A DNA stretch of 64,000 nucleotides from Naegleria gruberi (Eukaryota). The position numbers were made by a program, and so were the translations under genes. The stretch lies in NCBI GenBank assembly GCA_000004985.1, contig GG738855.1. One strand, 5' to 3'. A model generated the notes under the pieces. That model did not search any database. It saw nothing but the letters and a program-made list of their open reading frames with translations, and was not told where the DNA came from. Below are positions 45,466-51,865 of the stretch, in pieces. Each line of letters starts with the position of its first letter. The stretch's first letter is position 1.

Positions 45466-46650
45466 ATGTCCTTTCTCTCATCACAATATCAACCAACATC
45501 TGATAATAATTCATCGGCATCAAGCCGATCATCAATTTCCATGTTTCAGCCAACATTCTTTGAAATAATGACACAGGAAAGAATGATTTCTGGATTAAAA
45601 TCAGCGCTCCGATACATCTTGTCAATGGCTGCACAACGCAATTTTAGATATTTGAACATTTTGAAATATTATGATGAATTATTTGGAATACTTCAACTTG
45701 TGATCGAGAGACATTTTCTCTCAAATTTTGACTCTTCTTTTGCCGAGCATTTATTTGGATTGAAACGAGTGGATGCAAATCAATTTACACCTGATAATCA
45801 ATCAAAACCTTCATTTCTTACCAGCAAACAGAGAGCACAAAGTCTTGCATATCTTGTCTTTGTTCCTTATATAAAGGATAAATTGGAAAATTTATATGTT
45901 GATTTGAGAAGAGAGCATGCCTTGTCAGATATTAGAAATTCTACAGAATTGGATAATTCAATTATTCCTTCGGAAATGCTGCAAGAGGAGTCAAGTAATA
46001 TGGGATATCATAGATTTTCAAAAATTGTTAGGACATACTTTATGAAATTATGGCCATATATTAGTACTGCCTATGAGGGCTCTCATTTCTTTTTCATGTT
46101 CCTCTATCTGTTAAAGAGAGATTTCAAATATCATAATCCTTTCATGTATTTGATTGGACTATGTCTTAAGAGATTATCACCATCAGAACATGTACAACAT
46201 TTGAGTGCTATGAATATCAAGAGAAATAATCTCATTGAATCTTTCAAAAAATTGGGGGGAAATTTATTTGGATCTCTTTTTGGTTACATTATCAAATTTT
46301 TATACTCAATTTCTGATTACTCAACTCATTTACTCTTAGCAATAGCCTTCCTTTTCAAATTCTTTGAATGGTATTTCAATAATGAATCATCACTTCTCAC
46401 AAAGGGAAATATCATCATTCCACCTCCACCTTCACAACCAGAGAGAACTCCAGGAGGTCTAGAAATACCAACAAACCCAAGATTATGTCCATTGTGTAAG
46501 AAGGAAAGAAGAAATGCCACTTTATTGACAGTTTCTGGCTTTGTATTCTGTTACAAGTGTATTCAAAATCATTTGATAAGTCATTCAACCTGTCCAATCA
46601 CACTCTCTCCCTGTAACAAATCACATCTTGTAAAGATATTTGAAAATTAG
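45466..46650 (+). CDS. PEX12: Peroxin-12 (peroxisome assembly protein 12, RING peroxin)
   Basis: A single 394-aa ORF. The N-terminal Pex2/Pex12 domain is PTFFEIMTQERMISGLKSALRYILSMAAQRNFRYL.. and the C-terminal degenerate RING is CPLCKKERRNATLLTVSGFVFCYKCIQNHLISHSTCPITLSPC. Confidence 0.85.
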   Translation: MSFLSSQYQPTSDNNSSASSRSSISMFQPTFFEIMTQERMISGLKSALRYILSMAAQRNFRYLNILKYYDELFGILQLVIERHFLSNFDSSFAEHLFGLKRVDANQFTPDNQSKPSFLTSKQRAQSLAYLVFVPYIKDKLENLYVDLRREHALSDIRNSTELDNSIIPSEMLQEESSNMGYHRFSKIVRTYFMKLWPYISTAYEGSHFFFMFLYLLKRDFKYHNPFMYLIGLCLKRLSPSEHVQHLSAMNIKRNNLIESFKKLGGNLFGSLFGYIIKFLYSISDYSTHLLLAIAFLFKFFEWYFNNESSLLTKGNIIIPPPPSQPERTPGGLEIPTNPRLCPLCKKERRNATLLTVSGFVFCYKCIQNHLISHSTCPITLSPCNKSHLVKIFEN

Positions 46651-48513: not shown

Positions 48514-49152
48514 CTATTGACTGGTTGAAGTACCATTCTTATTTTCAATATCTTTTTTAATGTAAGAGAAATTAGCTTCGAGCTCTCTTTCCAATTCTTG
48601 TTCCTTCTCTTCACTCTTTTTAATCTTGTCATTGAACTTTTTAACCTTGGCTTCCAAATTCTTCCTCTTTACAGCCCAAATCAATAAACAAACAGAAATA
48701 AACAGAACACCAAATGCACGAATACCTCTATAAATAACCTTCTTTAACATGACTTCTGCATCCTTACGGGATTCCAATTCTTTTTGTAACATTTCTCTCT
48801 TTTGTTTCAGACTTTCGGCAGAGTCCATGATGAGAGAAGCTGTCGATTGCAAATTAAAAACATTTTCTGATGTTGTTGATTGTTCTGATGAGGTATTGGT
48901 TTGTTGTTCGTTGGTTGTTGTGGTAGGTTCTTGGGCTGGTGAATTTTCTACCACTGGTTCCGATAATGTTGAGGTTTTTTCTTCTTTACTTTCTGATTGT
49001 TCTGATGAGGTATTTGTTGTTGTTGTATTATTGGATAATAATCTATTAGAAAATTGAGTGGAAAAACATCTTGATGAGAAGGTAGTGGCCAATCTTTGGT
49101 TATATCCTGTTGGCAATCGGAGTAATTGTTTGGTAAATTGTCGTGATAACAT
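48514..49152 (-). CDS. Hypothetical protein (212 aa) with a presequence-like N-terminus, T/S/E/Q-rich repeats, one TM helix and a C-terminal coiled coil
   Basis: A single ORF with ATG after an A-run. The N-terminus is MLSRQFTKQLLRLPTGYNQRLATTFSSRCF. There is an internal duplication (NTSSEQSESKEE / NTSSEQSTTSEN), and the TM helix is AFGVLFISVCLLIWAV. Confidence 0.6.
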   Translation of the reverse strand: MLSRQFTKQLLRLPTGYNQRLATTFSSRCFSTQFSNRLLSNNTTTTNTSSEQSESKEEKTSTLSEPVVENSPAQEPTTTTNEQQTNTSSEQSTTSENVFNLQSTASLIMDSAESLKQKREMLQKELESRKDAEVMLKKVIYRGIRAFGVLFISVCLLIWAVKRKNLEAKVKKFNDKIKKSEEKEQELERELEANFSYIKKDIENKNGTSTSQ

Positions 49153-49248
49153 TTTTTTGTTGTGAATTTAAAAATTGAAAATTATTACACAAGTACCTGC
49201 AAGGTAAATTGAAAATCTAAATCATTTCTTTAGGGTTTTATGGTACAA

Positions 49249-50123
49249 TTAATGAGAGAGTAAATTCAAACGATCTTTCCATGCTGTATCTGCCGAGTGG
49301 AAGGTAATAATTCTCTTTTCGTCTTGCTCATCTGCCACTTCAGAGTTCATGTCTGTATCGACTGGTTCGAAAATAATACAGAGAATGTGACATTTGGTTG
49401 TGTCTGACATGGCATCTTTGATGATAGTGTGATGTGGTTGCTTCATCACATCTTCTTCCAATAATCTATTTCCCCATTCAATGAGCGAAATTCCACTTGA
49501 AAAAACAGATGGTAAATCCAATCTATCAAATCGTTCCAATCTATAGAGGTCAATATGATGAATAGGACTATTAAATTATTATATTTGTTAAATTAAAATT
49601 CATTGTAATAATACGAAACTTACACTTTCTTGCTCGTCATTTTGGATTCGTAAATATTATCTAGCAAAAATGTTGGTGATGGAACATTGAGATTCATATC
49701 CTTTTCCAATACTCTGATAACGTGTCTTGCAAAAACAGATTTTCCACTTCCCATATCACCAATTAATAAGACAACATCTGTAGATTCCAACATGGATGAA
49801 AATCTTTCGGCCAAATTTCTAGTTTCTTCAACTGAATTGACAACAAAAGTTGCTTCAAAATAGGTGGGAGTGACCTGGGATGGTATTTCTCTAGCCGAAT
49901 ATTTATAATCATCCATTTTCTGTTGCTTTTTCAACTCTGGCCCATTTAAACAAGAGTGAGTACTGAATGTTCTTTCTCCGATGAATTTTGTAGATTGATT
50001 CCAATTAGTGGTAGTCCAGTTGGCCGCACTTCCAAGTATAAACTTTCCATTGTTTTTGGTGATGGATTGAATTTGATGGATGAGATTGATACTTCTTCTT
50101 CTGCTGCTGTTGCTCGATAACAT
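49249..50123 (-). CDS. tsaE: TsaE (YjeE)-family P-loop ATPase of the bacterial t6A tRNA-modification system, with a roughly 90-aa N-terminal extension
   Basis: Model: complement(join(49249..49567,49624..50123)) with a 56-nt intron (GTAAGT..AATAG). All TsaE signatures are in order: Walker A LLIGDMGSGKSVFARHVI, SPTFLLDNIY, (intron) PIHHIDLYRLER, and ISLIEWGNRL. Confidence 0.8.
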
Positions 50124-50477: not shown

Positions 50478-51865
50478 TTACTTTTCATAAATTCTATGCA
50501 AATAAATGGTTAGTGGTTCATATTGATCAGTGGCTTCTTCAATGTCAAAACAGTAAGCTTTTGGATATTTTGGTGGTTCTTTTGAAGAGATAGATAGTCC
50601 CTCTGATTCGGCCTCTACTCTTGATATTCCACAAAATGTTTGAAGAGATTCAACAAGGGATGTTGCATTTTCACTCAAAGGATACTCAATTGAATCATTT
50701 TCTGCCTTCTTTCTCCTTTCGTTTGTATAAATTGCTTGTTGATGAAAGGAAAAAATGTTTTCTTTAGTTTCTGATAAGGCAACATCTATTTTGATTCCAC
50801 TCCATTCAGTATCATACTCCTCTGAATCAAATCTATTATCCCTTATTGTAAAGTAGTGTAAATTATCCTTATTGGGAGTATCACATGATTGTCTCATCAT
50901 TTTCTTGAGGAGATCAATAGGAGAACGGTCAATTTGAATTTTCATTGAACGATTGCCAGAGAGAGAACCATCCCAACTACGTAATTGACCCTTCTTGATT
51001 TGTACTGGCTTGTTTGGTTTAACCTTGAGTTTCCAACTCAAAATCATTTCATCTGAATTACCTCCAGGATATCGACTGAATAAAAATTAATAAACTCATT
51101 GAATTAAGAAACATACTCTAGTGCCATGAATAGAATACTGATTGATAGTGAGCAATTCTTCTTGTACTCTTCAACAACAGATGGTAGATTTGAGGTTAGG
51201 TGAACACTAAATCTAGGATCCACCTTCTTACTTCTCATCACTTGTACAAACTCATTTCTATTCATCATATCACAAATGCACGAGTTAAACTTTCCATACA
51301 TTCTAGAATTCAACACTGCCAAATTTGCAAATGATTCAGCATTGAGAAACTTTGAAATTTCATAAATCAAATCATTGGTAAACTCTTCCAATGCACTTGT
51401 TCGTGTGAGTGTTGAGCTTGACATTTTAATCTTTTTAGAAAGATTTTCCTCTTCATCAATTGTAATTTCCAAACTTCTCTTCTTCTCTTGTTTTAACAAT
51501 TCCTCAATTCTTTTCTTATCATTGGCTTTTAATTTTTTTAATCCGTGTATTTCGTGATTCTTCAATTTTTCAACCAAATCATCATCTTTGATATATTCTA
51601 AATTAAATATTATTTGTTATTGATGATGATGGTGGTGTGTGATTATAAAGTATTTACCTTCAAAATTGTACCATTCTGGATAATTTCCACCAAAACTATC
51701 AACCTCTGATCTGACAATCTTTCCAATCCTAAGAACACTTTGTGGAATATTCTTGCCAGTCAACTTGCATTTTGATCGGCTTGATTTACTGTACTCGATC
51801 ATATAATCACCTAGTGGTGGAAATTCAGGCATTTTTTCTTGTGTTTTCTTTCTGTTTGCAAACAT
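50478..51865 (-). CDS. Hypothetical protein (about 428 aa) with a PARP-type zinc-finger-like N-terminus lacking most zinc ligands, an F-box-like segment, and an unknown C-terminal domain
   Basis: Model: complement(join(50478..51075,51117..51597,51658..51865)). Introns of 41 nt (GTATGT..TTCAG) and 60 nt (GTAAAT..TTTAG) join three track ORFs in frame. DYMIEYSKSSRSKCKLTGKNIPQSVLRIGKIVRSEVDSFGGNYPEWYNFE follows the zf-PARP template (EYAKSGRS.CK.C...I.K..LR......S..FDG....WYH..C), but only the first Cys is kept. EEFTNDLIYEISKFLNAESFANLAVLNSRMYGKF is F-box-like. Confidence 0.55.

What the first reader, a model, noticed from the sequence alone, without database searches (positions are those of the whole stretch)
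49249..50123. TsaE (YjeE) homologue in a eukaryotic nucleus with an N-terminal extension
All TsaE signatures are present in order: GDMGSGKS Walker A, SPTFLL..Y, HIDLYRL and IEWG. They are split by a typical 56-nt spliceosomal intron, so this is a bona fide nuclear gene and not contamination. TsaE belongs to the bacterial TsaBDE t6A machinery. The well-studied opisthokont mitochondrial pathway uses only Qri7/OSGEPL1. The roughly 90-aa N-terminal extension (MLSSNSSRRRSINLIHQ...) suggests organellar import, which implies a more bacterial-like t6A pathway in this mitochondrion.
Basis: partly seen in the sequence, partly recalled or inferred. Interest (0 to 1): 0.5.

Follow-up and report, generated by a model that had tools for sequence, protein, structure and literature searches.

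The report
Mitochondrial TsaE ATPase gene in Naegleria
This is a real, intron-containing nuclear gene of the amoeba Naegleria gruberi for a mitochondrion-targeted copy of TsaE, the helper ATPase bacteria use for the tRNA modification t6A, and reviews of that pathway describe TsaE as absent from eukaryotes.

Summary
On the minus strand, 50123..49249 encodes a 272-aa protein in two exons split by a 56-nt GT..AG intron (49623..49568). It passes the curated TsaE models: Pfam PF02367 at 91.4 bits against a cut-off of 26.6, and TIGR00150 at 62.5 against 60.1. Its AlphaFold model matches only solved TsaE structures.

The window is Naegleria gruberi, gene NAEGRDRAFT_57360 (XP_002680077.1). The deposited 342-aa model is a chimera that skips the true second exon and splices into the next gene. 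Naegleria fowleri, N. lovaniensis and Willaertia magna encode the full protein, with an intron at the same codon and phase.

The roughly 85-aa N-terminal extension is basic and non-conserved. The protein is listed in the published N. gruberi mitochondrial proteome, together with a Qri7/TsaD homologue.

Extended, organelle-type TsaE proteins also occur in green and streptophyte algae and in stramenopiles. In a weakly supported tree they group next to Alphaproteobacteria.

I could not test whether Naegleria has TsaB, so a "bacterial-like pathway" remains an inference. UniProt already auto-names the protein TsaE. This is a new member of a known kind, of moderate interest.

The parts
49624..50123 (-). 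Exon 1 (residues 1-166 plus the first two bases of codon 167). It holds the N-terminal extension, strand 1 and helix 1 of the TsaE fold, the Walker A motif and the SPTF switch.
   Evidence: Sequence and splicing. The region is identical to the first 167 residues of XP_002680077.1.
49869..50123 (-). N-terminal extension, about residues 1-85, a putative mitochondrial presequence plus linker. The first 40 residues have 5 Arg/Lys and no Asp/Glu; the first acidic residue is at position 50. The model predicts a helix at 11-23. The region is not conserved between Naegleria species.
   Evidence: composition; pLDDT below 50 for residues 1-9 and 25-54; helix 11-23; alignment; TargetP mitochondrial score 84 in PMC8134430 Suppl. 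Data 2.
49737..49760 (-). Walker A / P-loop motif GDMGSGKS (residues 122-129).
   Evidence: G122, G125, G127 and K128 are invariant in 51 eukaryote-type sequences.
49668..49679 (-). SPTF motif (residues 149-152). T151 corresponds to E. coli YjeE T43, which coordinates the nucleotide. The motif is followed by LL, which is typical of the eukaryote-type clade.
49568..49623 (-). Spliceosomal intron, 56 nt, GTAAGT...TAATAG, phase 2, inside codon 167.
   Evidence: The same position and phase are used in N. fowleri (194 nt), N. lovaniensis (147 nt) and Willaertia magna (45 nt). GC content is 14%.
49249..49567 (-). Exon 2 (last base of codon 167 to residue 272, plus stop TAA at 49251-49249). It holds the Walker B-like motif, switch II and the C-terminal strands and helices. 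The deposited gene model omits it.
   Evidence: The Pfam match continues through it. pLDDT is 86-97.
49540..49560 (-). HHIDLYR (residues 170-176), the Walker B-like Asp (D173) and switch Tyr (Y175, equivalent to E. coli Y82).
   Evidence: (H171, D173, Y175 and R176 invariant).
49471..49482 (-). IEWG (residues 196-199). E197 and W198 correspond to E. coli YjeE E108 (Mg/ATP coordination) and W109.
   Evidence: (E197 and W198 invariant).

Best explanation
The locus is the Naegleria gruberi nuclear gene for a mitochondrial TsaE (YjeE) P-loop ATPase. Shown: a two-exon gene encodes a 272-aa protein whose C-terminal ~185 residues form a complete TsaE domain with every nucleotide-binding and switch residue intact. 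Its N-terminal ~85 residues are a basic, poorly conserved extension. The deposited protein co-fractionates with mitochondria in published proteomics, as does a Qri7/TsaD-family t6A transferase. Inferred: after import and removal of the presequence, TsaE binds ATP and docks onto the dimerisation interface of the mitochondrial TsaD-family enzyme. That partner dimer would be Qri7 paired with a TsaB, if one exists, or with a second Qri7. As in bacteria, ATP hydrolysis would release TsaE and reset the transferase, so that it can carry out repeated transfers of threonylcarbamoyl from TC-AMP to A37 of mitochondrial ANN-decoding tRNAs. The gene most likely descends from the alphaproteobacterial ancestor of mitochondria and was lost in opisthokonts and land plants.
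For: Family: Pfam PF02367 scores 91.4 bits against a cut-off of 26.6, and TIGR00150 (equivalog) scores 62.5 against 60.1. The best solved relatives are all TsaE: T. maritima 1e-12, B. subtilis YdiB, H. influenzae HI0065. In the AF2 model, residues ~85-272 have pLDDT mostly above 85, and the eight significant Foldseek PDB hits are all TsaE, with target-normalised TM-scores of 0.72-0.80. Residues shown to be essential in E. coli YjeE (T43, Y82, E108, W109; PMC4330362) are present as T151, Y175, E197 and W198, and they are invariant in 51 eukaryote-type homologues. Nuclear gene: the organism is N. gruberi; the intron position and phase are conserved in four heterolobosean genomes; the neighbours are eukaryotic; GC content matches the flanks. 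Mitochondrial location: the N-terminus is basic and free of acidic residues in the two other Naegleria orthologues; Willaertia has one Asp/Glu in its first 40 residues. XP_002680077.1 is among the 946 putative mitochondrial proteins, with TargetP 84, 4 unique peptides and abundance rising towards the densest, most mitochondria-enriched fraction (PMC8134430). Four peptides covering 68 residues are hard to obtain from the downstream half of the chimeric model alone. Partner: the Qri7/TsaD homologue XP_002678425.1 is in the same proteome. Origin: an exhaustive HMM search returns a large set of 200-300-aa proteins with N-terminal extensions. Named members include Chlamydomonas eustigma, Tetraselmis, Chara braunii, Tribonema minus, a Leptocylindrus cluster and the heterotrophic stramenopile Incisomonas marina. 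In a neighbour-joining tree these form one clade of 118 sequences with no labelled bacteria, and its sister group contains all 34 alphaproteobacterial sequences. A motif scan of 185,579 prokaryotic species genomes returned mostly Alphaproteobacteria, 39 of 70.
Against: No TsaB homologue, the third subunit of the bacterial complex, was found. None appears in the stored part of the mitochondrial proteome table by name or by the GPGxF motif, and the Naegleria genomes could not be searched. The proteomic entry is the chimeric 342-aa model, so the peptides are not formally assigned to the TsaE half. No biochemical activity or t6A data exist for any eukaryotic TsaE. Yeast Qri7 and human OSGEPL1 work without TsaE, so a TsaE requirement is not a given. 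Support for the tree is weak (82-101 of 200 bootstraps for a bacteria-free eukaryote clade). The bacterial sample was chosen by motifs shared with the query, and it contains no cyanobacteria.
Confidence: 0.7

Rival explanations
1. Recent horizontal transfer: Heterolobosea acquired tsaE from a bacterium independently of the mitochondrial endosymbiosis, and other eukaryotes obtained theirs separately, for example through plastids.
For: The distribution among named eukaryotes is patchy, and many carriers are algae. Bootstrap support for a single eukaryote clade is only about 40-50%. No cyanobacterial sequences were in the tree.
Against: The intron is shared by Naegleria and Willaertia. The SP[TS][FY]LL signature occurs in 7 of 7 named eukaryote sequences and 81 of 90 extended proteins, against TL in 32 of 34 alphaproteobacteria. 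A plastid-less stramenopile, Incisomonas, carries the same type. On the full data the eukaryote-type sequences form one clade.
Confidence: 0.15
2. The protein is a TsaE-fold ATPase that has taken on another mitochondrial job and no longer acts in t6A synthesis.
For: The mitochondrial Qri7/OSGEPL1 enzymes studied so far need no TsaE. Zhang et al. suggest that bacterial YjeE may have other cellular roles. TsaB was not detected. The protein has an extra helix and an acidic loop after IEWG compared with bacterial TsaE.
Against: All TsaE-specific motifs, including the switch residues that respond to TsaBD, are invariant across the eukaryote clade. The protein passes the equivalog-level TIGR00150 model. 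A TsaD-family partner is in the same organelle.
Confidence: 0.12
3. The deposited 342-aa model is the true product: exon 1 is spliced to the distal acceptor at 49043, giving a truncated P-loop fused to a membrane-anchored tail.
For: It is the RefSeq/GenBank model. Both models use the same donor, and the distal site has a valid AG. The proteomic identification was made against this model.
Against: That model deletes the Walker B-like and switch II motifs. It scores 115 bits against 197-210 bits for the Naegleria and Willaertia orthologues on the same profile. All four orthologous loci use the proximal intron and encode exon 2. The downstream ORF has its own ATG and its own basic N-terminus.
Confidence: 0.04
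4. The locus is bacterial contamination, or a dead remnant, in the assembly.
For: The family is otherwise regarded as bacterial.
Against: The gene has a spliceosomal intron conserved in four genomes, flanking eukaryotic genes, host-like GC content, an intact ORF and detected protein.
Confidence: 0.01

Closest known systems
Bacterial TsaE/YjeE (Pfam PF02367, TIGR00150), e.g. Thermotoga maritima TsaE in the TsaB2D2E2 complex (PDB 6N9A, 6S84), Bacillus subtilis YdiB (5NP9), Haemophilus influenzae HI0065 (1HTW)
   Same: It has the same fold, with target-normalised TM-scores of 0.72-0.80. It has the same Walker A, SPTF, HxDxYR and EW motifs, in the same order and spacing, and about 40-45% identity to alphaproteobacterial TsaE over the domain.
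   Different: The gene is nuclear, has an intron and lies in a eukaryote. The protein has an ~85-aa N-terminal targeting extension, an LL instead of TL after SPTF, and about 35 extra residues (a helix and an acidic loop) after IEWG. A TsaB partner has not been demonstrated.
Minimal mitochondrial t6A system of opisthokonts (Sua5/YRDC plus Qri7/OSGEPL1)
   Same: It sits in the same organelle, with a Qri7-type transferase present in Naegleria mitochondria. It is presumed to serve mitochondrial ANN-decoding tRNAs.
   Different: That system has no ATPase subunit, and reviews state that TsaB and TsaE have no eukaryotic homologues (PMC4615747; PMC9654439). Naegleria adds a TsaE.
Bud32 of KEOPS
   Same: It plays the analogous role proposed in reviews: an ATPase switch that resets the Kae1/TsaD-family transferase.
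   Different: Reviews describe TsaE as evolutionarily unrelated to the other t6A enzymes; Bud32 is described as an atypical protein kinase and belongs to the KEOPS complex of archaea and eukaryotes.
Other bacterial-type systems retained in Naegleria mitochondria, such as the type II secretion system homologues reported by Horvathova et al. 2021
   Same: It shows the same pattern: a bacterial component kept in the mitochondria of Heterolobosea and a scattering of other protists, and lost in model eukaryotes.
   Different: It is a different pathway. TsaE is also found in many algae.

Membership tests
TsaE/YjeE ATPase (PF02367 / TIGR00150) | Score above the curated family thresholds | tested here: met
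   PF02367 scores 91.4 bits against 26.6, and TIGR00150 equivalog scores 62.5 against 60.1 (marginal). The narrower enterobacterial model NF007931 is not reached (37 against 246).
TsaE/YjeE ATPase (PF02367 / TIGR00150) | Walker A motif GxxGxGK[ST] | tested here: met
   GDMGSGKS at residues 122-129; the motif is invariant in the clade.
TsaE/YjeE ATPase (PF02367 / TIGR00150) | Family-specific SPTF, HxDxYR and EW switch/Walker B-like motifs, with the residues essential in E. coli (T43, Y82, E108, W109) | tested here: met
   T151, D173, Y175, E197 and W198 are present. Their functional importance comes from PMC4330362.
TsaE/YjeE ATPase (PF02367 / TIGR00150) | TsaE three-dimensional fold | tested here: met
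   In the AF2 model the domain has pLDDT mostly above 85. The eight Foldseek PDB hits with E of 1e-8 or better are all TsaE; the next hits have E above 2e-3 and are unrelated.
TsaE/YjeE ATPase (PF02367 / TIGR00150) | ATPase activity stimulated by the TsaB-TsaD pair, and support of multi-turnover t6A synthesis | not testable with these tools
   This needs biochemistry.
Complete bacterial-type TsaB-TsaD-TsaE machinery in the mitochondrion | TsaD-family transferase in the same compartment | tested here: met
   XP_002678425.1 is in the putative mitochondrial proteome with 6 unique peptides; its best BLAST hit is a mitochondrial tRNA N6-adenosine threonylcarbamoyltransferase (PMC8134430 Suppl. Data 2). 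This rests on published data, not on a search of my own.
Complete bacterial-type TsaB-TsaD-TsaE machinery in the mitochondrion | TsaB (YeaZ) dimerisation subunit encoded by the same genome | not testable with these tools
   The Naegleria genome and proteome are not searchable here. Only weak negative evidence exists: there is no 'TsaB', 'YeaZ', 'dimerization subunit' or GPGxF-motif entry in the stored (truncated) part of the mitochondrial proteome table, and there is no TsaB fusion in the long eukaryote-type TsaE proteins.
Complete bacterial-type TsaB-TsaD-TsaE machinery in the mitochondrion | TC-AMP synthase (TsaC/YrdC/Sua5) available in the organelle | tested here: inconclusive
   No Sua5 or YrdC annotation appears in the stored part of the table; the single 'yrdc' hit is a chance string inside an acyl-CoA dehydrogenase sequence. 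The file was cut when stored.
Nuclear-encoded mitochondrial protein | Spliceosomal intron and eukaryotic genomic context | tested here: met
Nuclear-encoded mitochondrial protein | N-terminal presequence and experimental co-fractionation with mitochondria | tested here: met
   TargetP 84 and membership of the mitochondrial cluster come from PMC8134430. Caveat: the database entry used there is the chimeric model, and argue that at least some peptides come from the TsaE half.

The most novel reading that the evidence does not exclude
The ancestral eukaryotic mitochondrion used a TsaE-dependent, bacterial-style t6A machinery, so the Qri7-only system of yeast and humans is a derived simplification. 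In Naegleria and other carriers, TsaE may act directly on a Qri7 homodimer without TsaB. That would be a hybrid architecture not described in any domain of life.
Probability: 0.3. Interest if true: 0.65.

Novelty: new member of a known kind. Interest (0 to 1): 0.48.

Why it matters
Reviews of t6A biosynthesis state that TsaB and TsaE are confined to bacteria and describe mitochondria as the one place where a two-protein system suffices. TsaE has been discussed as a bacteria-specific drug target on that basis. A conserved, expressed, mitochondrion-associated TsaE in Naegleria contradicts the first statement. So does the sister set of extended TsaE proteins in green algae, Chara, stramenopile algae and a heterotrophic stramenopile. 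Together they suggest that the minimal mitochondrial system is a lineage-specific loss rather than the ancestral state. The finding also gives a concrete experiment: does a Qri7-type enzyme from such an organism need, or respond to, TsaE, and is TsaB involved? The genus includes the brain pathogen N. fowleri, which carries an orthologue, so a protein absent from the human host has some practical interest. On the annotation side, the RefSeq model for this gene is a chimera and should be replaced by two genes.

Tried and rejected
1. A profile search of the word-indexed protein database with 51 eukaryote-type sequences scored only 8000 candidates. Beyond sequences I already had, it returned mostly unnamed bacterial or metagenomic TsaE, so it added little on taxonomy.
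2. I did not run a TsaB search of that database. Its candidate selection favours close bacterial relatives of any bacterial query, and a Naegleria TsaB would not reach the listed top hits.
3. Literature searches for TsaE with Naegleria, algae or plastid, and for TsaB with Qri7 and protists, found nothing on eukaryotic TsaE. Apparent hits in a Phytophthora acetylome paper and a Cavalier-Smith monograph were irrelevant.
4. The Andalucia and Acanthamoeba mitochondrial-proteome papers do not mention t6A genes in their main text. The supplements of the N. fowleri genomics paper held no TsaB, TsaE or PF00814 terms.
5. A Biopython neighbour-joining bootstrap timed out; I replaced it with a numpy implementation.
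6. I checked whether the long (300-512 aa) eukaryote-type TsaE proteins are fusions with TsaB. They are not; only the TsaE domain is recognised.
7. I tried to assign the published peptides to one half of the chimeric model from the coverage figure alone. The result is suggestive but not conclusive.

Full report
**Observation.**
The stretch 49249-50123 carries a gene on the minus strand. It starts at ATG (50123) and reads 500 nt to a GTAAGT donor. It skips 56 nt (49623-49568, ending TAATAG) and continues 319 nt to TAA (49251-49249). The spliced CDS is 819 nt and encodes 272 aa. Without splicing, the frame stops two codons into the intron.

- GDMGSGKS at residues 122-129
- SPTFLLDNIY at 149-158
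- HHIDLYRL at 170-177
- IEWG at 196-199

The intron is 14% GC, against 36-37% for the exons and 34.6% for the window.

**Family.**
Against Pfam, the only family above threshold is TsaE (PF02367): 91.4 bits against a cut-off of 26.6, E = 5.6e-26. The match covers residues 96-214 and profile positions 2-115 of 128, so it runs straight across the splice junction. All other P-loop families score below their cut-offs.

NCBIfam's equivalog model TIGR00150 is passed narrowly (62.5 against 60.1). The narrower enterobacterial model is not reached.

The closest solved proteins are all TsaE: T. maritima (1e-12), B. subtilis YdiB and H. influenzae HI0065. An AlphaFold2 model built on 51 homologues has pLDDT mostly above 85 from about residue 85 to the end. 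Residues 1-80 are disordered except for a helix at 11-23. Foldseek against the PDB gives eight hits with E of 1e-8 or better, all TsaE, with target-normalised TM-scores of 0.72-0.80. Everything below them is unrelated.

The residues whose mutation abolishes ATPase activity in E. coli YjeE are T43, Y82, E108 and W109 (PMC4330362). They correspond to T151, Y175, E197 and W198 here, and they are invariant across 51 eukaryote-type sequences.

**Organism and gene model.**
The first 167 residues are identical to XP_002680077.1 / EFC47333.1 (NAEGRDRAFT_57360, UniProt D2V794) of Naegleria gruberi. UniRef already auto-names that entry TsaE.

The deposited protein is 342 aa. After ...MTSKKV it continues LLSNNTTTT..., which is the interior of the next ORF downstream (48514-49152, minus strand). 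The deposited model uses the same donor but an acceptor at 49043. That makes a 581-nt intron, which swallows the true second exon and its stop codon. The result lacks HHIDLYRL and IEWG.

The orthologues in N. lovaniensis (278 aa), N. fowleri (277 aa) and Willaertia magna (227 aa) all contain these motifs and end as the 272-aa model does. I mapped those proteins onto their genomic loci. Each has an intron in phase 2, in the codon just before (P/T/E)IHHIDLY, exactly as in the window. The intron lengths are 56, 194, 147 and 45 nt.

The conserved intron, the eukaryotic neighbours (a Pex2/Pex12 RING peroxin at 45466-46650 and a TPR protein) and the host-like composition together exclude contamination.

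**Location.**
The N-terminal ~85 residues have no counterpart in bacterial TsaE. They are not conserved even within Naegleria. The first 40 residues contain 5-9 Arg/Lys and 0-2 Asp/Glu in the four orthologues.

Independent published evidence exists. Horvathova et al. 2021 (PMC8134430) fractionated N. gruberi and defined 946 putative mitochondrial proteins from 376 markers. Their Supplementary Data 2 lists XP_002680077.1 with these values:
- best BLAST hit: TsaE of Acetobacter aceti (6e-11)
- TargetP mitochondrial score: 84
- 4 unique peptides, 19.9% sequence coverage
- label-free intensity undetected, then 23.3, then 25.3 across fractions of rising mitochondrial enrichment

The caveat is that the entry searched was the chimeric model. 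An in-silico digest shows that four peptides covering 68 residues cannot come from the downstream half alone. The only exceptions need either the non-existent junction peptide or the hydrophobic transmembrane peptide with missed cleavages. At least part of the signal therefore probably comes from TsaE exon 1. This is an inference, not a demonstration.

**Partners.**
The same table contains XP_002678425.1, a TsaD/Qri7-family protein. Its best hit is a mitochondrial tRNA N6-adenosine threonylcarbamoyltransferase, and it has 6 unique peptides.

The stored part of the table is truncated. In it I found no entry named TsaB, YeaZ, Sua5 or YrdC, and no protein with the TsaB GPGxF motif. The tools available cannot search the Naegleria genome for TsaB. 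The third subunit of the bacterial complex is therefore neither shown nor excluded.

**Distribution and origin.**
An exhaustive HMMER search of 1.84 billion representatives, using a profile of the heterolobosean and two related metagenomic sequences, gave 20,621 hits. The top ~150 are mostly 200-300 aa, with 30-130-residue N-terminal extensions and the signature SP[TS][FY]LL.

The members that carry names are eukaryotes:
- Chlamydomonas eustigma
- Tetraselmis
- Chara braunii
- Tribonema minus
- a cluster containing Leptocylindrus aporus
- Incisomonas marina, a stramenopile of the order Nanomonadea; I know it as a heterotroph, from background knowledge rather than from a tool result

A scan of one genome from each of 185,579 prokaryotic species, for the motifs G[SV]GKSVFAR and VPSPT[FY]LLD, returned 71 loci. 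Of the 70 usable loci, 39 are named Alphaproteobacteria, with about 40-45% identity.

I built a neighbour-joining tree of 199 sequences over 152 columns. It places all named eukaryotes in one clade of 118 sequences with no labelled bacterium. The sister group contains all 34 alphaproteobacterial sequences. Only 82-101 of 200 bootstraps keep the eukaryote clade free of bacteria. The bacterial sample was motif-selected and lacks cyanobacteria.

The data therefore favour a single, ancient, alphaproteobacterium-related (mitochondrial) origin followed by many losses. They do not prove it.

**Mechanism.**
What is shown: an intact TsaE ATPase domain behind a presequence-like extension, and detection in mitochondrial fractions together with a Qri7-type transferase.

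What is inferred comes from the bacterial system (PMC9654439; PMC4330362). ATP-bound TsaE docks at the dimer interface of the TsaD-family enzyme and competes with tRNA. Its hydrolysis-driven release resets the transferase for further rounds of threonylcarbamoyl transfer from TC-AMP to A37. In Naegleria the interface could be Qri7-TsaB or Qri7-Qri7. From my own knowledge, the Naegleria mitochondrial genome encodes its own tRNAs, so a resident t6A machinery is needed.

**Comparison with what is known.**
The protein meets every sequence and fold criterion of the TsaE family that I could test; the enzymatic criteria cannot be tested here. It differs from bacterial TsaE in four ways:
- it is a nuclear gene with an intron
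- it has an N-terminal extension
- it has LL instead of TL after SPTF
- it has an extra helix and an acidic loop after IEWG

It differs from the canonical mitochondrial system, which has no ATPase subunit. The t6A reviews say that TsaB and TsaE "have no homologs in Eukarya" (PMC4615747), that TsaB has no close eukaryotic orthologues (PMC9654439) and that the two-component system is the mitochondrial one (PMC11077089). No paper in the searchable library discusses a eukaryotic TsaE.

On the other hand, UniProt auto-annotation and one line of a proteomics supplement already label this protein TsaE. The gene is thus known to databases but not to the field.

**Verdict.**
It is a new member of a known family in an unexpected host compartment, of moderate interest. 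It also brings a concrete annotation correction and a testable evolutionary and biochemical question.

Noticed in passing
window 48514-49152 (-) and 49043-49623: The deposited N. gruberi model NAEGRDRAFT_57360 (342 aa) fuses TsaE exon 1 to the interior of the next ORF through a 581-nt 'intron'. That ORF encodes 212 aa with its own ATG, a basic N-terminus (MLSRQFTKQLLRLPTGYNQRLATTF...), a Thr/Ser/Glu-rich stretch, one hydrophobic helix (AFGVLFISVCLLIWAV) and a Lys/Glu-rich tail. It has no Pfam match and looks like a separate, possibly mitochondrial membrane protein.
   Followed up: partly
outside the window: XP_002678425.1 as printed in PMC8134430 Suppl. Data 2: The N. gruberi Qri7/TsaD homologue model starts at MERPKILHEQV..., and TargetP does not predict it as mitochondrial (score 11). 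The deposited model may be truncated at the N-terminus.
   Followed up: no
L001 (N. fowleri) and cluster members P0003/P0011/P0012: N. fowleri has two deposited TsaE entries at 90% identity or more, on different contigs (FDP41_004358, 277 aa, on a 605-kb contig; FDP41_004969, 290 aa, on a 30-kb contig), plus a 252-aa model from another assembly. This may be a haplotig or duplicate, with differing start and end calls.
   Followed up: no
L001 and L073 against the window: In N. fowleri and N. lovaniensis the TsaE gene lies next to an Arf-family GTPase and a pyridoxamine-phosphate oxidase gene. The ORFs flanking the N. gruberi gene (50478-51047 and 48514-49152) have no Pfam match, so local gene order may differ.
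   Followed up: no
L074 3665-4007 (Willaertia magna): The Willaertia TsaE model has two extra 3' introns that give an odd C-terminus (..TSSFCCIFLSEAIHSSFIHLN), unlike the Naegleria proteins. This is probably a mis-annotated 3' end.
   Followed up: no
window 45466-46650 (+): An uninterrupted ORF encodes a Pex2/Pex12-type RING peroxin (PF04757, 116 bits, plus a C3HC4 RING finger).
   Followed up: no
proteins P0202 and P0203 (metagenomic): Some TsaE homologues of about 500 aa carry a PF01636 (aminoglycoside phosphotransferase-like kinase) domain fused to TsaE. These appear to be bacterial fusions unrelated to the eukaryote clade.
   Followed up: no
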